From NCBI RefSeq assembly GCF_055900595.2, contig NZ_CM148325.1: a DNA stretch of 64,000 nt. The stretch is one strand, 5' to 3'. The notes beneath the pieces were generated by a model. It saw only the letters and a program-made list of their open reading frames with translations. It was not told where the DNA came from and did no database searches. A program made the translations under genes and the position numbers. Of the stretch, positions 2 to 57,661 are shown piece by piece. Numbering within the stretch: the first letter of the stretch is position 1; each line of letters begins with the position of its first letter.

Positions 2-619
2 ATTGAATTTGCGCTTGGCAAGCAGGTATTAAAGTTTGGCGAGTTTACGCTGAAGTCCGGGCGCAAAAGCCCCTATTTCTTCAACGCCGGGCTGTTTAAT
101 ACCGGGCGCGATCTGGCACTGTTAGGCCGTTTTTACGCTGAAGCGTTAGTGGATTCCGGCATTGAGTTCGATCTGCTGTTTGGCCCTGCTTACAAAGGGA
201 TCCCGATTGCCACCACAACTGCCGTGGCGCTGGCGGAGCATCATGACCTGGACCTGCCGTACTGCTTTAACCGCAAAGAAGCAAAAGACCACGGTGAAGG
301 CGGCAATCTGGTTGGTAGCGCGTTACAAGGACGCGTAATGCTGGTGGATGATGTGATCACCGCCGGAACGGCGATTCGCGAGTCGATGGAAATTATTCAG
401 GCCAATGGCGCGACGCTTGCTGGTGTATTGATTTCGCTCGATCGTCAGGAGCGTGGTCGCGGCGAGATTTCGGCAATTCAGGAAGTTGAGCGTGATTACA
501 ACTGCAAAGTGATCTCTATCATCACCCTGAAAGACCTGATTGCTTATCTTGAAGAGAAGCCGGAAATGGCGGAACATCTGGCGGCGGTTAAGGCCTATCG
601 CGAAGAGTTCGGCGTTTAA
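2..619 (+). CDS. pyrE: orotate phosphoribosyltransferase, 5' end cut by window edge
   Basis: Frame from nt 2 translates [30 protein letters not shown]..., continuous with the track ORF 149..619 and ending ...AYREEFGV; matches PyrE as I remember it. Confidence 0.95.
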
Positions 620-626
620 AAATATG

Positions 627-655
627 CGCTGCGCAGGTTTTTACTGTGCGCAGCG
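627..655. terminator. perfect 9-bp inverted repeat (cgctgcgca / tgcgcagcg) just after pyrE stop; likely pyrE terminator or attenuator-like hairpin
   Basis: Inverted repeat read directly; no strong T-run after it. Confidence 0.45.
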
Positions 656-689
656 TGATGCGGTTTAAGATATCGTGTTAATCTGCTTT

Positions 690-883
690 CGCCAGCAGTG
701 GCAATAGCGTTTCCGGCCTTTTGTGCCGGGAGGGTCGGCGAGTCGCCGACTTAACGCCAGTAGTTTGTCCAGATACCCAAAGTCGCTCCATTGTACTTAA
801 GTACGCTTCGCGTACGTCGCGCTGACGCGCTCAGTACAGTTACGCGCCTTCGGGATAGTTTGAGGGTATTGCCGCTGTTGGTG
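690..883 (+). ncRNA. msr-msd: retron msr-msd locus (template for msDNA), bounded by a1/a2 inverted repeats
   Basis: a1 (cgccagcagtggcaatagc, ~690-708) and a2 (ggtattgccgctgttggtg, ~865-883) can pair over about 18 of 19 positions as RNA including G-U wobbles; several internal palindromes (gtcggcg/cgccgac, gtacgc/gcgtac, gcgc-tgac-gcgc) typical of msd stem-loops; lies immediately 5' of an RT ORF. Confidence 0.7.
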
Positions 884-915
884 CCTCTTTTGGTCGCCGT
901 GATGTGGAGAGTGGA

Positions 916-1875
916 ATGGATGCTACCCGGATAACCCTTCTGGCGCTTGATTTGTTCGGCTCGCCGGGCTGGAGCGCCGATAAAGAAATACAGCGGCTGT
1001 ATGCGCTCAGTAATCATGCCGCACGCCATTACCGACGGATTATTCTTTCTAAGCGTCACGGCGGTCAGCGGGTGGTGTTAGCCCCTGATTACTTGCTCAA
1101 AACCGTACAGCGCAACATTCTTAAGAACGTCCTTTCACAATTCCCTCTTTCCCCTTTTGCTACCGCCTACCGACAGGGTCGCCCAATCGTCAGCAACGCG
1201 CAGCCTCACTGCCAACAGCCGCAGATCCTTAAACTCGATATCGAAAACTTTTTCGATAGCATTAGCTGGTTACAGGTCTGGCGTGTGTTTAGCCAGACCC
1301 AGTTGCCACGCAATGTGGTAACCATGCTGACCTGGCTTTGTTGCTATAACGACGCGTTACCGCAGGGGGCGCCAACTTCGCCTGCCATTTCCAATCTTGT
1401 GATGCGCCGTTTTGATGAGTGCATAGGGGAATGGTGTCAGGCTCGGGGAATTACCTACACCCGCTACTGCGATGACATGACCTTTTCTGGTCACTTCAAT
1501 GCCCGCCAGGTTAAAAATAAAGTATGCGGATTGTTAGCGGAGCTGGGCCTGAGCCTCAATCAACGCAAAAGTTGCCTGATAGCTGCCTGTAAGCGCCAGC
1601 AGGTAACCGGGATTGTTGTTAATCACAAGCCACAGCTTGCCCGTGAAGCGCGCCGGGCGCTGCGTCAGGAAGTACACTTGTGCCAAAAATATGGCGTTAT
1701 TTCGCATCTTAGTCATCGTGGTGAACTTGATCCTTCTGGCGATCTCCACGCACAGGCAACGGCGTATCTTTATGCTTTGCAGGGAAGAATAAACTGGTTA
1801 TTGCAAATCAATCCTGAGGATGAGGCCTTTAAACAGGCGAGGGTGAGTGTAAAGCGAATGCTGGTGGCATGGTAA
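916..1875 (+). CDS. retron-type reverse transcriptase (Ec107-like), 319 aa from ATG at 916
   Basis: Track ORF 904..1875; RT motifs QGAPTSPAISNL and YCDDMTFSG (YxDD box); GGAG Shine-Dalgarno 6 nt before the ATG at 916; position between pyrE and slmA matches the described retron-Ec107 site. Confidence 0.85.
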   Translation: MDATRITLLALDLFGSPGWSADKEIQRLYALSNHAARHYRRIILSKRHGGQRVVLAPDYLLKTVQRNILKNVLSQFPLSPFATAYRQGRPIVSNAQPHCQQPQILKLDIENFFDSISWLQVWRVFSQTQLPRNVVTMLTWLCCYNDALPQGAPTSPAISNLVMRRFDECIGEWCQARGITYTRYCDDMTFSGHFNARQVKNKVCGLLAELGLSLNQRKSCLIAACKRQQVTGIVVNHKPQLAREARRALRQEVHLCQKYGVISHLSHRGELDPSGDLHAQATAYLYALQGRINWLLQINPEDEAFKQARVSVKRMLVAW

Positions 1876-1883
1876 GAAAAGCG

Positions 1884-1905
1884 TCAGGCAGACGTTTCTG
1901 CCTGA
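1884..1905. terminator. hairpin (tcaggcaga-cgtt-tctgcctga) between convergent RT and slmA
   Basis: Perfect 9-bp stem with 4-nt loop read from sequence. Confidence 0.4.
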
Positions 1906-1918
1906 ACGTTTGGGAGAA

Positions 1919-2515
1919 TTACTGCAACTGCGCAGCAATTAGCGGCCAGCGGGCGTCAAAGTCATCCGTCGGGCGGTATTTAAACTCGCTGCGGACAAAG
2001 CGTGACAGCATACCTTCACAGAAGGCCAGGATCTGGCTTGCCAGCAGGGTTTCGTCGGTGGTGTAACCTTCACCCTCACGCATTCTCTTTTCACGCAATA
2101 CCTGACGCAACTGCGCTTCAATACGCTCGAATAGCTGGTTGATGCGCCCTTGCAGGCGATCCTGTTCAAACATTAGTGCATGACCAGTGAGGATGCGGGT
2201 CAGGCCAGGATTACGCTCACCAAAACCGAGAAGCAGCAACACAATCAGACGCAGGCGCGCTGTGGTGTCTTTCTCATCTTTCAGAATCAGATTGATGCGA
2301 GTAATCAGGCTATCTTCGATAAACTCAATCAGGCTATCGAACATGCGGGTCTTACTGGGGAAGTGGCGATACAGTGCCGCTTCGGAAACGCCGACAGAGG
2401 CGGCCAGTTTTGCCGTCGTGATACGTTGGCTTCCATCGCTGGATTCCAGCATCAGCGCCAGAGACTGAAGTATTTCCTCGCGACGGTTCCTTTTCGCAGT
2501 TTGTTTTTCTGCCAT
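1919..2515 (-). CDS. slmA: nucleoid occlusion factor SlmA (TetR family), 198 aa
   Basis: Track ORF 1919..2557; start placed at [19 protein letters not shown]... (ATG at 2513-2515). Confidence 0.9.
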
Positions 2516-36551: not shown

Positions 36552-39500
36552 TTACCACTGAATACCGGCACCGAGTGCGGCGGAGTATTCACCCTGGCTA
36601 TTGGTACTACCTTGTAATTTGTAGACCCAACGACCATTGGCGCTCACCATCGACACACCTAAAGCAACAGCCGATTCGCCGTTGTAAGTACCACCACCAA
36701 TAGAGGCCATGCTGGCTCCCGGCGTGTAAGCCTGCGGCAGACCGGTCATTGCCATTGCGGAAGCGATACCACCGCTCAACTTGCTTTCGGTTTTGGACAG
36801 TTTGTTATCCATCTCAACCATGCGCTGATCGGTGTATTGCTTCGTTTCCTGCACACTTTGCTTCAACTGTGCATAGTTCACTGCGTCGTTGTTGTTCACG
36901 CCCGCAGAAACGTTGCTGATGCGAGTCGTACCGCCATTGCCGCCACCGAGAGTGATGTTGCTGTAGTCGATAGAGCCATCAGCTTTGGTGTCGTAGCGAA
37001 CGCCACCTGCTTCGGAAGACTTCAGTTGCGAAACGTTAACCGCATCGGTGGCATTAACACCGGCAGCAACGTTGGTGATACGGCGCTGGTTGGTAGAAGA
37101 ACCCACAGAGATTGTGTTTTCTTCGTTGGCCACGGAGCCTGTACCCAGAGCGACGCTGTTGTCAGCGGCAGCAATGGATCCAGAACCAATCGCCACACTG
37201 TCTTTACCCTGGGCGTTAGCATCTACGCCATCGGTGTTGGTCTTGAAGTACTTGGTGCTACCTGTGGTTACGATATCGCCAATACCGTTCTCGATATTGG
37301 TCACGCGAGTATCCAGATTCGTCACCTGATTGTTCAGGTTAGTAATGCTCTGGGTATTCTGGGAAACCTGCGCATCCGTTACTTTCAATTGACCCACGTT
37401 GACCGCATCGGTATCAGCCGAACCAGCCGCGACGTTGGTGATCTGACGTTGACCGTCTTCGCTACCTACGGAGAATTCACCCACAGAGTTCTGCGGTGCA
37501 TCCATGTTGTAGGCGGTGTAGCCAGTTTGTGCGCCACGGGTAGTTTGAGAACCATTACCCATTGCAATGCTGTTTGCATGGTTTGCACGCGCGTTGCTAC
37601 CGATAGCAATACCGTTAATCGCATCTGCCAGAACTAAAGTGTTCAGGCCGATACCAATACCTGCATTACCATTAACGATGGTTTTTGCGCCCATTGCCAG
37701 CGAGTCTTCACCGATTGCCAGTGAGTCTTCAGCCGTTGAATTGGCGTGATAGTATTTGGTTGGCGTGGTGGCTACTGCACCAATGGCATTCTGCAACTGG
37801 CGAACCGTAACGGCGTCATGGGCTTCAGAACCATCGGCAACATTGATGATTTGACGATATTTACCATCGTCACCGATCGACAATGCGCCAAGCAGTTCAC
37901 CGTCAGTTGTGTCATAACCAATCACAACACCTTCTTCCGATACGCTGGTGTCACGAGAACCTTTAACTATTAAACGGCTGGAAACGGAACTGCTACCCAG
38001 AGCGATACCTGTATCAACGTTGCTGTAACTGTCCTGACCGATGGCTACACTGCTGGCACGAGAGGCAACAGCGTTATAACCCACAGCGGTAGCACCAATA
38101 CCTGAAGCGCTGGCATCGTTGAATGCTAAGCCGTTGTCGTTGGTACGCACATAGTTAATACCCGCGCCATTTTCTTCGATGTAGGTTTCACTGGTGTTAC
38201 CGGCAAGCTGATTGATGACTTCGCTGTTCTGCTGGATCAGCATATTGGTGTTAAACAGCTGAGAACCGTTCACTGCATCGGTGCTACCTTCACCAATGTT
38301 ACCATCAGCAACGTTTGTGATAATGCTGGCCTTGCCGTCATGACTGGCGTTGTAAGCCCCTTCGCCGTTATTGGCGGTCGCATCCCACAGCAGCGCGTTC
38401 TCATCAAGCGCATCCAGAGCGTCACCGACATTGTTGTACTCGGCATTCGCAATGGTGTAAGTCGGCGCAGTGATAGTACCGTCAGCGTTAACTTCTGCAT
38501 CACCGCCCAGAGCATCTGCGATATATTTATTAGTGGTATAGAGTTGTGAGCCGTTAATCGCGTCGCTGCTGGTGGCAGAGATTGCACCATTTGCGACGTT
38601 AGTAATCTTACTGGCAGTGTTATCTACCCCACGACCGGCGCTGAATGCACCAGCACCGTCATTGGCTGTTGCATCCCAGAGCAGGGCGTCATCCAGTGTG
38701 GTATCGATCGCTTCCAGTGCGTCACCAACGTTGCTGTAACTGCCGCCAGCGATGGCATAAGTCGGTGTGGTGATACTGCCGTCCGCATTCACCACAGCGT
38801 TCCCGCCCAGAGCATCGGCAATGTAGTCACTAACGCCATAAAGTTGAGAACCATTAATAGCGTCGCTACTGGTGGATGAGACTGCACCGTTTGCAACATC
38901 AGTGATTACACTGGGATCATTATTAATGCCGTGTTTGGCGCTGAATTTGCCTGCGGTTGTATCCCAGAGCAGAGCATCACCGAGAGAATCACTAAATGAA
39001 GTGTTAATCGCAGCCAGAGCATCCCCGACGCTAGTGTAGTCAGTGCCGCCAATACTATAGGTTGGCCCGGTTAATATACCTGTATCGCTAATATCAGCCC
39101 CACCACCCAGATAGGACGTGAATGAATCAGCCAAACCGTAAAGTTGTGAGCCATTAATGGCGTCAGTGCTGTCAGAGGAGACTATGCCAGCTTGTACGTT
39201 GCTGATTTTGTTGGCGGCGTTAGTGCCGTGTGCAGCGGTGAATGCGCCTGCGGCGTCGTCCCATTTCAGGGCGTCTTCACCGAGGTTAGTCACCGTATCA
39301 GTCAGGTTAGTGATATTGGTGGTGTTGGTCGCCACATCGTCCTTGGTCGCTTTCAGCTGAGAACCATTAACGGCGTCGGTGCTGGTGTCAGAGAGCTCGC
39401 CAGCGGTGACGTTAGTGATTTTGTTGGTGGCGTTGGTGCCGTGTGCAGCGGTGAATGCGCCTGCGGCATCGTCCCATTTCAGGGCGTCTTCACCGAGGTT

Positions 39501-41363
39501 AGTCACCGTATCAGTCAGGTTAGTGATGTTGGTGGTGTTAGTTGCCACGTTATCGTTAGTGGTTTTCAACTGAGAACCGTTAACGGCGTCGGTGCTGGTG
39601 TCAGAGAGCTCGCCAGCGGTGACGTTAGTGATTTTGTTGGTGGCGTTGGTGCCGTGTGCAGCGGTGAATGCGCCTGCGGCATCGTCCCATTTCAGGGCGT
39701 CTTCACTAAGGTCAGTCACCGTATCAGTCAGGTTAGTGATATTGGTGGTGTTGGTCGCCACATCGTCCTTGGTCGCTTTCAGCTGAGAACCATTAACGGC
39801 GTCGGTGCTGGTGTCAGAGAGCTCGCCAGCGGTGACGTTAGTGATTTTGTTGGTGGCGTTGGTGCCGCGTGCAGCGGTGAATGCGCCTGCGGCATCGTCC
39901 CATTTCAGGGCGTCTTCACCGAGGTTAGTCACCGTATCAGTCAGGTTAGTGATATTAGTGGTGTTGCCAGCCACTTCGCTCGTCAGGTTAGTGATGTTGG
40001 TGGTGTTTGCCGCCACATCGTCCTTGGTCGCTTTCAGCTGAGAACCGTTGACGGCGTCGGTGCTGGTGTCAGAGAGGTCGCCAGCGGTGACATTGGTGAT
40101 TTTGCTAGTGGCGTTGTTGCCATGGGCAGCGCTGTATTTGCCATTGGTTTGGTCCCATTGCAGAGTGTTTTCATCAAGTACAGTGAGCGCATCGCCAACG
40201 TTATTTTTGTTACCATTTTTTAAGTTGTAGGCGGGGGCTTTAACTGTACCGTCGTCAACGTTTACCGATGCGCCTCCACCCAGTCGTTTTGCTACCGAGT
40301 CGCTGATGGCATAAAGCTGCGAGCCATTAATGGCGTCATTGCTGTCAGCTTTGATGGTGCCATTTTTCACATTCACGATCTTGCGTTTTAATGAGTCATT
40401 ACCGACAGAAACGCTATCGTCCAGATCCGCAATCGAACCTGCCCCCAACGCGACGGCGTTAATACCGTTGGCGCTGGTATTACTACCAAGCGCAAGACTA
40501 TTATCGCCCGTGACAACACTGGTTTTACCTAAAGCAATAGAGTTTAAGCCACTCGATTGGCTACCATTACCCAGAACGATAGCATCTGTACCATTAGCTT
40601 TGTTGCCCTGACCTATGGCAATTTCGCTATCTGCCAAAGCCTGGCTGCCATTGCCCAATACGATAGTATTGGTTTTATCGGCAAGGCTCCCGGAGCCCAG
40701 CGCCATGCTATTAGTCCCTTTTGCCTTCGCATTATTGCCAATGGCGGTAGCATTTTCAGCGGCTTCGGTGTTAGTGCCCATCGCGATGGAGTCCGTTCCT
40801 GATGCATTTGCCAATCGTCCTAATGCAAGAGCATTAGCAGCACTTGCTACCGTATCTTTGCCCAACGCCATGGCACCTTCACCTTTAGCTTGAGCAGAAT
40901 TCCCCAGTGCAAGTGTATAATCGCTGGTCGCTTTAGCTGCACTGCCGATGGCGATAGCTCGGCTGCCCGTTGATACCGTTGATTGCCCTAAGCCAACCGA
41001 TCTTTCTCCTGATGAGTTACTTGAGAAGCCAATTGCCGTACTGCCCACCCCGGCGGTCGAACCTATTCCTACCGCAACACTTCCTGTATTCTCTGTTCCT
41101 GAACCCTTTGGCTCTGATGATGCGACAGCACCTTTACCAATGGCAATCCAGTCATTACTGAGTGGCGTTGCCTCTGCGCTTTTACCACCGTCAAGTGAAA
41201 CCGAAGCATTGGCCCCAACGGGTGAGAGTAGCCCACCCGCAACCAGCGCGGAAATTAACAGCTTACTACGCCCGCTCTTTTTTCCACGACTCTTCGCCGT
41301 TTCGCTGGCAACGCTATAGCTGCCCGTCGCTGGATTCCAGATAACTTTAAAAATTTTGTTCAT
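36552..41363 (-). CDS. trimeric autotransporter adhesin (YadA-like; UpaG/EhaG/SadA family), 1603 aa
   Basis: N-terminal extended signal peptide [21 protein letters not shown]...; long repetitive Ser/Thr/Asn/Gly-rich passenger with NGSQL-type head/neck motifs; C-terminal YadA-type anchor ending ...[36 protein letters not shown]. Confidence 0.85.
39166..40060. repeat. tandem array of about 4 copies of a 213-bp (71-aa) unit inside the adhesin gene
   Basis: Plus-strand artefact ORFs start at 39379, 39592 and 39805 (213-nt spacing) with near-identical translations; the adhesin shows repeated [71 protein letters not shown] blocks. Confidence 0.85.
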
Positions 41364-57048: not shown

Positions 57049-57234
57049 GTGAAAAGTGCAGACGTGATCGCCATCCTGAAGCAGCATGGCTGGGAACATA
57101 TTCGAACCCGTGGTAGTCATCATCAGTTCCGCCACCCTGTCCATCCGGGTCTGGTGACGGTTCCGCACCCTAAAAAAGATATTAAGCCCGGTACGCTGGC
57201 GCAAATTGGGCGTCAGGCTGGTTTAACATTTTAA
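57049..57234 (+). CDS. hicA: HicA-family toxin (61 aa), GTG start
   Basis: MKSADVIAILKQHGWEHIRTRGSHHQFRHPVHPGLVTVPHPKKDIKPGTLAQIGRQAGL: HicA-like GSHH...GL(V)TVP(H)PKKD signature; TATAAT at 57025-57030 upstream. Confidence 0.8.
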   Translation: MKSADVIAILKQHGWEHIRTRGSHHQFRHPVHPGLVTVPHPKKDIKPGTLAQIGRQAGLTF

Positions 57235-57250
57235 AATTTCAGGAGGCAAT

Positions 57251-57661
57251 ATGTTTTATCCCGCCTATATCCACAGTGATCCTGACGGCAGCGCCAGCGG
57301 TTTTTTCCCTGATGTTCCAGGCTGTTATTTTGCTGGTGATACGCTGGACAACGCTTTCCAGGATGCGCGAAGTGCACTGGTCGCGCACTTCGAAACCTTA
57401 TGCGAGATGAATGAAGAGTTGCCGCTTCCAGGCTCTGTGGAAACACATCTGGTCCAGCGTGCGCAGGACTTTATTGGCGGGCAATGGTTGCTGGTGGATA
57501 TCAATATGAATCAGTTCGAAGGTCGGGCTGAACGTATCAATATTACGATGCCGAAAAGATTACTGAACAAGATTGATACCTACGTGCGCAATAACCCAGA
57601 CTACGCCAACAGAAGTGCGTTTCTGGCGGAAGCTGCCCGGCGTGTATTGCCGGGCGTTTAA
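57251..57661 (+). CDS. hicB: HicB-family antitoxin (136 aa) with C-terminal ribbon-helix-helix
   Basis: Starts 17 nt after hicA; C-terminal INITMPKRLLNKIDTYVRNNPDYANRSAFLAEAARRVL is RHH/CopG-like. Confidence 0.75.
   Translation: MFYPAYIHSDPDGSASGFFPDVPGCYFAGDTLDNAFQDARSALVAHFETLCEMNEELPLPGSVETHLVQRAQDFIGGQWLLVDINMNQFEGRAERINITMPKRLLNKIDTYVRNNPDYANRSAFLAEAARRVLPGV

What the first reader, a model, noticed from the sequence alone, without database searches (positions are those of the whole stretch)
690..1875. Retron Ec107-like element (msr-msd + RT) between pyrE and slmA, with no effector gene in cis
A 319-aa reverse transcriptase with canonical RT motifs (QGAPTSP, YCDD) sits directly downstream of a structured ~190-nt region bounded by inverted repeats, which is the architecture of a bacterial retron. 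The cassette is wedged between the housekeeping genes pyrE and slmA, matching the published retron-Ec107 insertion site. Retrons characterised as anti-phage systems usually carry an effector gene next to the RT; here the RT is standard length and is followed immediately by convergent slmA, so any effector would have to act in trans or be absent.
Basis: partly seen in the sequence, partly recalled or inferred. Interest (0 to 1): 0.8.

Follow-up and report, generated by a model that had tools for sequence, protein, structure and literature searches.

The report
Known stand-alone retron Ec107 (Eco5)
This is a slightly divergent copy of the long-known E. coli retron Ec107 (Retron-Eco5), a small RNA gene plus reverse transcriptase that makes a branched single-stranded DNA; its lack of a neighbouring effector gene is real but already published, so the finding is correct and not new.

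Summary
Window 621-1917 is a 1.3-kb cassette that replaces the 34-nt palindromic pyrE/slmA spacer of K-12. It holds a structured msr-msd RNA gene (about 690-883) and a 319-aa reverse transcriptase (916-1875).

The RT scores 6.9e-133 on PADLOC's RT_Ec107-like model. It carries NAxxH, VTG and YCDD, and is 96% identical to UniProt Q05804.

No effector lies in cis. pyrE and slmA are ordinary housekeeping genes, and the site is strictly biallelic in 5,426 complete E. coli genomes: 381 carry the retron and 5,043 are empty.

The cassette is not decaying. RT dN/dS is 0.07-0.14, and 53 of 55 ncRNA pairs covary across 77 relatives. G·U wobble is almost absent from the msd helices (0.5% against 6-12% elsewhere), as expected if that segment must also fold as DNA.

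In 86 relatives from Enterobacterales, Neisseria and gut Firmicutes no neighbouring gene recurs.

All of this agrees with the literature. Mestre et al. 2020 describe the Eco5 branch as a stand-alone cassette, and a 2026 SPIRE survey found no recurrent accessory module. Novelty: already known. What the msDNA does without an effector remains open.

The parts
621..1917 (+). Whole retron cassette: the DNA present here in place of 34 nt of the 36-nt K-12 pyrE/slmA spacer
   Evidence: Compared with the MG1655 spacer AGAAACTCGCCGGATGAAAAGTCATCCGGCGTCATAT. 381 E. coli genomes carry the cassette and 5,043 have the contiguous empty site.
617..655 (+). Overlapping hairpins just after the pyrE stop codon, probably replacing the lost pyrE terminator
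   Evidence: Inverted repeats I3 (617-629/631-643) and I4 (627-635/647-655). The terminator role is inferred; the consensus scan did not flag it.
656..689 (+). Region that must hold the msr promoter, unless transcription reads through from pyrE
   Evidence: Inference from position only. The sigma-70 consensus scan found no site on the + strand here.
690..706 (+). a1 inverted repeat, the 5' arm of the closing stem
   Evidence: Compensatory changes occur in 15 of the 16 pairs of this stem across 77 relatives (helices 1-2).
707..707 (+). Predicted branching (priming) G in the conserved TAGC motif just 3' of a1
   Evidence: AATAGC is invariant in 8 Enterobacterales and AG is at least 75% conserved in 77 relatives. 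The role as 2'-OH primer is inferred by analogy with characterised retrons.
710..752 (+). Two msr hairpins (710-731 and 732-752); the second has a nearly invariant GCGAGTCGC top
   Evidence: (helices 3 and 4, 84% and 95% of cells paired, 15 of 16 pairs with changes on both sides).
760..866 (-). msd, the template for the msDNA. The predicted cDNA starts opposite G707 at position 866 and runs about 107 nt to about 760. It has a long stem (776-854) with a GTAC/GTAC helix (793-796/834-837) and two tip hairpins (801-815, 819-830)
   Evidence: Structure (helices 5-9). G·U wobble is 0.5% here against 6-12% in the RNA-only helices. The exact ends are inferred from geometry and the published length of 107 nt.
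867..883 (+). a2 inverted repeat, the 3' arm of the closing stem
916..1875 (+). Retron reverse transcriptase, 319 aa, with NAQPH (region X), QGAPTSP, YCDD and VTG (region Y)
   Evidence: dN/dS is 0.07-0.14.
1884..1905 (.). G+C-rich palindrome between the RT and convergent slmA; terminator-like on the minus strand (slmA) and probably also ends the RT transcript
   Evidence: 9-bp stem, followed by a T-rich tail (CGCTTTTCTT) on the - strand. Use on the + strand is inferred.

Best explanation
The element is Retron-Eco5 (Ec107), in a minor allele that differs by about 4.5% in DNA from the common E. coli allele. [quoted passage not shown]

**How it works** (steps 1-4 follow the established retron pathway; the msDNA itself was shown experimentally for Ec107 by others):
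1. One transcript carries msr, msd and the RT gene.
2. a1 (690-706) pairs with a2 (867-883), and the RT binds the two msr hairpins.
3. The RT primes from the 2'-OH of G707 and copies the msd from about 866 back to about 760.
4. RNase H trims the template, leaving a roughly 107-nt folded DNA joined 2'-5' to the msr RNA.

**What comes after is inference.** No effector gene is attached, here or in any relative I examined. The cassette is under clear purifying selection and tracks host base composition. I therefore think it is a long-resident two-part RT-msDNA particle that acts through something not encoded beside it. That partner would be either a broadly conserved host factor or the RT itself, rather than a classical cis-encoded toxin. 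Published work reports induction in starvation and stationary phase.

Rough split of my belief about the downstream role:
- acts without a dedicated effector (regulatory, sponge or decoy role of the msDNA-RT particle): 0.35
- defence with an unlinked effector: 0.25
- maintained with little host benefit: 0.2
- other: 0.2
For: **Identity**
- PADLOC RT_Ec107-like scores 6.9e-133.
- The RT is 96% identical to UniProt Q05804 and belongs to the same 90% cluster.
- YCDD is the variant reported for RT-Eco5 (PMC6868368).
- 34 nt of the spacer are replaced, as published.

**ncRNA**
- Fold z-score is -5.3.
- 19 of 55 pairs are compensatory among 8 Enterobacterales.
- A covariance model finds the RNA directly upstream of the RT, on the same strand, in about 73 of 86 loci.
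- 53 of 55 pairs change on both sides, and 90.6% of cells pair against 30-45% when partners are slid.

**Signature of reverse transcription**
- G·U occupies 8 of 1,565 cells in the msd helices, against 201 of 2,182 in the a1/a2 and msr helices (Fisher odds ratio 20, p = 2e-39).

**Function retained**
- RT dN/dS is 0.07-0.14 in five comparisons.
- 66 columns are invariant in 32 RTs of 48-96% identity, YCDD included.

**No cis effector**
- No neighbour family occurs in more than 6 of 86 loci.
- The closely spaced downstream ORFs that could be identified are housekeeping genes (7 of 10; 3 had no NCBIfam match), and none of the 10 hits PADLOC.
- The contexts show housekeeping or unannotated neighbours, with no recognisable effector gene.

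**Long residence**
- RT GC runs from 0.19 to 0.64 and follows flank GC (Spearman 0.91).
- The same pyrE/slmA site is occupied in relatives at 87%, 72% and 69% identity, and RT dS scales with flank dS.
Against: - msDNA was not measured for this allele. The priming G and the cDNA ends are placed by analogy and geometry.
- I could not obtain the original 1992 sequence. The link to 'Ec107' rests on the PADLOC model name, the site, the motifs, and my memory that Q05804 is the Ec107 deposit.
- The sequences in the covariation and G·U tests are related to each other, so the p-values overstate independence. The alignment was also fitted to the model.
- The downstream role is unsupported by any direct test here. 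Only 7% of E. coli carry the element, so it is dispensable.
Confidence: 0.9

Rival explanations
1. A classical retron defence system whose toxin or effector is encoded elsewhere in the genome (in trans). The RT-msDNA complex would hold it in check until phage infection.
For: All characterised retron types work this way. The RT's next-best PADLOC models are the PRTase-linked type III-A (7e-94). Mestre et al. 2020 place the Eco5 branch beside a PRTase-linked cluster and raise trans effectors as a possibility.
Against: No conserved neighbour appears in 86 loci from several phyla. The contexts are housekeeping rather than defence islands. RT and flanks co-diverge and GC is ameliorated, which is unlike the usual turnover of defence genes. 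Mestre et al. report that most hosts of orphan retrons lack homologues of known retron-associated proteins. A toxin unlinked from its antitoxin-like partner would be evolutionarily unstable (inference).
Confidence: 0.25
2. The adjacent pyrE (orotate phosphoribosyltransferase) is the effector, making this a disguised type III (PRTase) retron.
For: Type III retrons pair the RT with a PRTase-like protein, and pyrE lies directly upstream on the same strand. Mestre et al. note the coincidence.
Against: pyrE is a canonical OPRTase (TIGR00336 1.9e-50) and hits no PADLOC model at E <= 0.01. The same gene sits at the same place in 5,043 retron-free genomes. Relatives in Leminorella (cyaY/cyaA), Pragia and Budvicia (regulator/garD), Robinsoniella and Neisseria have no PRTase neighbour. 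Mestre et al. found this adjacency in only 2 of 59 RTs of the branch.
Confidence: 0.03
3. A decaying remnant: a type III retron that lost its effector and is now functionless DNA.
For: Its position beside PRTase-linked RTs suggests loss of an effector. It is absent from 93% of E. coli.
Against: RT dN/dS is 0.07-0.14. The ORFs are intact and 66 columns are invariant. The ncRNA shows massive covariation and DNA-level constraint on the msd. More than 570 species carry relatives. Published msDNA production and genome-editing activity of Ec107 also argue against it.
Confidence: 0.04
4. A selfish mobile element that spreads by inserting at palindromic terminators between convergent genes.
For: In E. 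coli it replaced a palindromic bidirectional terminator. All three independent sites seen in Enterobacterales lie between convergent genes.
Against: It is single-copy and at one site only in every one of 381 genomes. There is no integrase or transposase. Only 24 of 80 loci family-wide have the co-directional-upstream, convergent-downstream arrangement, close to chance. GC tracks the host.
Confidence: 0.08

Closest known systems
Retron-Eco5 (Ec107) of E. coli (Herzer et al. 1992; clade 2 stand-alone branch of Mestre et al. 2020)
   Same: Same chromosomal site with 34 nt replaced, the same 319-aa RT with YCDD, the same cassette layout, and no accessory gene. The RT is 96% identical to UniProt Q05804.
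   Different: This is an allelic variant. It has 14 amino-acid differences from Q05804 and about 95.5% DNA identity to the allele in 371 genomes. Only 9 complete genomes carry this allele at 99% identity or more.
Type III-A retrons (for example Retron-Eco11, PRTase-like effector plus winged-helix protein)
   Same: Closest effector-bearing RT models (PADLOC RT_III-A 7e-94). Mestre et al. place them at a shared node with the Eco5 branch.
   Different: There is no PRTase-like or winged-helix gene next to the RT, here or in 86 relatives.
Retron-Eco1 (Ec86), type II-A, solved structures 7V9U/7XJG/8QBK
   Same: Best sequence match among solved structures (1e-39 over residues 37-266), with the same overall msr-msd-RT logic.
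   Different: Ec86 has an NDT-like effector, a prophage context and YADD. Ec107 has none of these.
Stand-alone retron cassettes of RT clade 11 (Actinobacteria; Mestre et al. 2020)
   Same: Also an (msr-msd)-RT cassette with no associated protein cluster.
   Different: A different RT clade, ncRNA family and host range.

Membership tests
Retron (RT + msr-msd) | [quoted passage not shown] | tested here: met
   NAQPH, VTG and YCDD are present. N94, H98, V230, T231, G232, C185, D186 and D187 are invariant in 32 relatives.
Retron (RT + msr-msd) | Structured ncRNA directly upstream of the RT on the same strand, closed by the a1/a2 inverted repeats | tested here: met
   53 of 55 pairs covary, and 90.6% of cells pair against 30-45% in slid controls.
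Retron (RT + msr-msd) | Conserved priming G just 3' of a1 | tested here: met
   The G of TAGC at 707 is invariant in Enterobacterales and at least 75% conserved family-wide. Its chemistry was not tested.
Retron (RT + msr-msd) | msd segment that is reverse transcribed into a folded ssDNA | tested here: met
   Indirect evidence: G·U wobble is 0.5% in the msd helices against 6-12% in the RNA-only helices, odds ratio 20. The geometry of 866 to about 760 gives about 107 nt.
Retron (RT + msr-msd) | Production of 2'-5' branched msDNA in vivo | not testable with these tools
   Published for Ec107 (cited in PMC6868368 and PMC8989520), but not for this allele.
Retron-Eco5 / Ec107-like clade | RT matches the Ec107-like profile better than any other retron type | tested here: met
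   PADLOC RT_Ec107-like 6.9e-133 (440.7 bits) against the next model, RT_III-A, at 7e-94.
Retron-Eco5 / Ec107-like clade | Located between pyrE and slmA (ttk), replacing a 34-bp palindrome | tested here: met
Tripartite retron defence system (types I-XIII) | Accessory or effector gene adjacent to or fused with the RT | tested here: not met
   The window has none. No neighbour recurs in 86 loci, and downstream ORFs have no PADLOC hits.
Type III-A retron | PRTase-like effector, with or without a winged-helix protein, next to the RT | tested here: not met
   pyrE is the housekeeping OPRTase, has no PADLOC hit, and is present at empty sites.
Group II intron or DGR reverse transcriptase | RT groups with maturase or DGR RTs, with intron RNA domains or template/variable repeats | tested here: not met
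   Group II RT scores 4.4e-18 (65 bits against a cut-off of 300) while retron models score up to 1e-133. Rfam finds no intron.

The most novel reading that the evidence does not exclude
Ec107-like cassettes may form a very widespread family (at least 570 species, from Enterobacterales to gut Firmicutes) of truly two-component retrons. In this reading the msDNA-RT particle is itself the functional output, and no dedicated effector protein exists anywhere in the genome. The msd has features that are nearly invariant across phyla: the GTAC/GTAC helix, the tip hairpins and the loop of msr hairpin 2. These would then be recognised by the RT or by a universally conserved host protein, giving a physiological (starvation or stationary-phase) role rather than abortive infection.
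Probability: 0.3. Interest if true: 0.7.

Novelty: already known. Interest (0 to 1): 0.27.

Why it matters
The locus is the archetype of 'orphan' retrons, the one well-studied retron class with no known function. That question is real and still open. I found no paper in the held library up to mid-2026 that assigns Eco5 a function.

This window adds no new kind of object. It gives a second, about 4.5% divergent, natural allele. My analysis also adds supporting numbers: purifying selection on the RT, a DNA-level constraint on the msd, solo status in 86 species, and a strictly biallelic site. These show the cassette is maintained by selection and not a relic. This sharpens the case for the obvious experiments but does not change what is known.

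Tried and rejected
- **Rfam.** No family matched 500-2100 even at E <= 1, so Rfam does not cover this ncRNA. I built my own covariance model instead.
- **Hidden small effector.** The only sizeable overlapping ORF (751-1059, minus strand, 102 aa) carries stop codons in relatives. Rejected.
- **pyrE or slmA as effector.** Neither has a PADLOC hit, both are present at empty sites, and neither is adjacent in other genera. Rejected.
- **MazG downstream of the RT in Bariatricus**, and the YchF plus membrane-protein pair in six Bacilli/Tenericutes MAGs. These look like lineage-restricted synteny, not family-wide partners.
- **Targeted insertion at convergent-gene terminators.** True for the three Enterobacterales sites, but only 24 of 80 loci overall. 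Not general.
- **sigma-70 promoter scan.** No + strand site upstream of msr, so the promoter is unassigned.
- **Original Ec107 sequence.** Herzer 1996 (PMC178209) is not held, and the supplement of PMC8563936 holds the sequences only as images.
- **Structure prediction.** Not run. It would return no coordinates for testing the conserved cysteines, and the family assignment did not need it.

Full report
**1. What is in the sequence**

The start of the window reads pyrE (ends 619), a 1.3-kb non-K-12 segment, then convergent slmA (1919-2515), followed by dut and coaBC. In MG1655 the pyrE and slmA stop codons are 36 nt apart, and the spacer is a palindromic bidirectional terminator. Only the first and last bases of that spacer are shared with the window. 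So 34 nt are replaced by 621-1917.

Inside the insert, an ORF with a GGAG ribosome-binding site runs from ATG 916 to TAA 1875 and encodes 319 aa. RefSeq annotates the same CDS in strain E200086, which is 99.9% identical over the first 38 kb of the window.

**2. The protein**

- Pfam finds RVT_1.
- PADLOC's best model is RT_Ec107-like at 6.9e-133. The other 24 of the 25 listed models are also retron RT models, and the next four are all RT_III-A.
- NCBIfam gives retron St85 at 6e-68 against group II intron RT at 4e-18, far below that model's cut-off.
- The named PDB sequence matches are all retron RTs, led by Ec86.
- The retron-specific NAxxH and VTG motifs are present, together with the unusual YCDD box. 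They are invariant in an alignment of 32 relatives at 48-96% identity. Simon et al. 2019 single out YCDD as the RT-Eco5 variant.
- The exact protein is in public collections on 362 contigs. It shares a 90% cluster with UniProt Q05804, to which it is 96% identical. That Q05804 is the original Ec107 deposit is my recollection, not a tool result.

**3. The RNA gene**

Positions 688-885 fold to -90.4 kcal/mol, z = -5.3. The fold has these parts:
- a 17-pair closing stem (a1 690-706, a2 867-883)
- an unpaired G at 707 within TAGC
- two msr hairpins (710-731 and 732-752)
- a long forked msd stem (776-854) carrying two small tip hairpins

Eight Enterobacterales homologues give the same consensus, with compensatory changes in 19 of 55 pairs. 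I built a covariance model from them. It finds the RNA immediately upstream of the RT, on the same strand, in about 73 of 86 non-redundant loci, and exactly once in the window.

On that 77-sequence alignment, 53 of 55 pairs change on both sides. 90.6% of cells pair, against 30-45% when partners are slid, and no shuffle reaches the observed values. The alignment is fitted to the model and the sequences are related to each other. Even so, the margin is large.

A further test separates RNA-only helices from the msd. G·U wobble fills 6.4% of cells in a1/a2 and 11.9% in the msr hairpins, but 0.5% in the msd helices (8 of 1,565; odds ratio 20, p = 2e-39). A G·U pair in RNA becomes a C·A mismatch in the complementary DNA. 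The pattern is what one expects if the msd must also fold as cDNA.

If priming is at G707, copying starts at 866, and 107 nt ends near 760. That point is 8 nt past the second msr hairpin, the usual retron geometry. This placement is inference.

**4. No effector**

Nothing else is encoded in the cassette. The 102-aa antisense ORF is broken in relatives. pyrE and slmA are the ordinary housekeeping genes and hit no defence model.

In 5,426 complete E. coli genomes the site has only two states. The retron is present in 381 genomes, always chromosomal and single-copy. The contiguous empty spacer is present in 5,043.

| Relative | Identity to window RT | Site |
|---|---|---|
| Divergent Escherichia | 87% | pyrE/slmA |
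| Unnamed enterobacterial metagenome contig | 72% | pyrE/slmA |
| Pseudocitrobacter | 69% | pyrE/slmA |
| Leminorella | 63% | cyaY/cyaA |
| Pragia, Budvicia | 54-55% | sugar-acid regulator / garD |
| Robinsoniella, Neisseria | about 50% | RT also alone |

A scan of one genome per species found at least 570 species with relatives. The best 80 are mostly gut Lachnospiraceae, Oscillospiraceae and Bacilli/Tenericutes MAGs. I clustered the three genes on each side in 86 loci. No family occurs in more than six loci, and the recurrent ones are synteny blocks in close relatives. Of the ten tightest downstream ORFs, seven have identifiable housekeeping matches (YchF, a membrane protein, a response regulator, a ROK kinase, an aldo-keto reductase, two C-GCAxxG proteins) and three have no NCBIfam match; none of the ten hits PADLOC.

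This reproduces on new data what Mestre et al. [quoted passage not shown] **5. Is it alive?**

RT dN/dS against five relatives is 0.07-0.14. RT GC ranges from 0.19 to 0.64 and tracks flanking GC (Spearman 0.91).

Within Enterobacteriaceae the RT's dS rises in step with that of its flanks:

| Comparison with window | RT dS | Flank dS |
|---|---|---|
| Common E. coli allele | 0.13 | 0.04-0.09 |
| 87% allele | 0.57 | about 0.27 |
| 72% relative | about 3 | about 1 |

This fits long residence at this site, with exchange of occupied and empty alleles through the flanks, better than repeated recent insertion (inference).

The element is therefore maintained by selection. It is not a relic, and it shows no sign of being an active mobile element.

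**6. Mechanism**

Steps up to msDNA synthesis follow the established retron pathway. They are supported here by structure, motifs and the G·U signature. Others have shown msDNA production experimentally for Ec107, including RNase H trimming and induction in starvation.

What the msDNA does is unknown. I favour a two-part particle that acts without a dedicated effector or through a conserved host factor (about 0.35) over a trans-encoded toxin (about 0.25). My reasons are the absence of any linked gene across phyla, the housekeeping contexts, the co-divergence with hosts, and the unusual primary-sequence conservation of the msd from E. coli to Firmicutes. [quoted passage not shown] None of this is tested.

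**7. Verdict**

The object, its insertion site and its orphan status are all in the literature, so the novelty class is 'already known'. The window carries a minor allele of it: 9 of 381 genomes at 99% identity or more, the rest at about 95.5%. Interest is modest. The open question is real, but this locus does not make it newly testable.

Noticed in passing
window 600-1920, compared with L094 and L095: E. coli holds two retron haplotypes about 4.5% apart in DNA: 9 genomes at 99% or more to the window and 371 at 95-99%. Synonymous divergence is raised in the adjoining genes and falls with distance (pyrE 3' part 0.086, slmA 0.043, dut 0.009). This looks like an old haplotype, or an import from a divergent lineage through the flanks.
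   Followed up: partly
window 793-796 and 834-837 (msd stem); also 801-830: A GTAC/GTAC helix is close to invariant in 77 relatives across phyla (99% of cells paired, little variation), and the first tip hairpin is also well conserved (the second less so). Such primary-sequence conservation is unusual for an msd. It suggests a conserved protein reads the msDNA.
   Followed up: partly
RT residues C142, C174, C185 (the C of YCDD), C256, with H38, H98 and H264 (window 916-1875): Four cysteines and three histidines are invariant in 32 RTs of 48-96% identity. I did not test whether they form a metal or redox site.
   Followed up: no
L006 6957-6960, L014, L015, L007 6969-6972: In Pseudocitrobacter and Leminorella the RT gene overlaps the 3' end of the convergent downstream gene (slmA or cyaA) by 4 nt, leaving no room for a terminator between them.
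   Followed up: no
L012 and L013, 6005-6442: In Bariatricus massiliensis a MazG-family pyrophosphohydrolase gene starts 6 nt after the RT stop on the same strand. It does not recur in other loci, but it is worth noting because published work reports ppGpp dependence of Ec107 msDNA.
   Followed up: partly
L095 1-418, L096 849-2102, L097 491-1750: Some retron-bearing Escherichia have a site-specific integrase gene next to yicC, about 2.5-3 kb upstream of the retron, where K-12 has dinD. This is a separate island. No link to the retron was examined.
   Followed up: no
window 36552-41363 (- strand): A 1,603-aa YadA-like adhesin gene differs by repeat-length changes from the otherwise near-identical strain E200086. 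Identity to that strain drops from 99.92% before about 38 kb to about 98.4-98.8% after it, suggesting a recombination breakpoint.
   Followed up: partly
window about 57050-57661: A HicA/HicB type II toxin-antitoxin pair lies downstream of aldB, as annotated in E200086. hicB maps exactly to 57251-57661, while hicA differs by at least one base.
   Followed up: no
window 500-2100: Rfam release 15 has no model that detects this well-conserved retron ncRNA, even at E <= 1. A simple 8-sequence covariance model recovers it in more than 70 species.
   Followed up: yes
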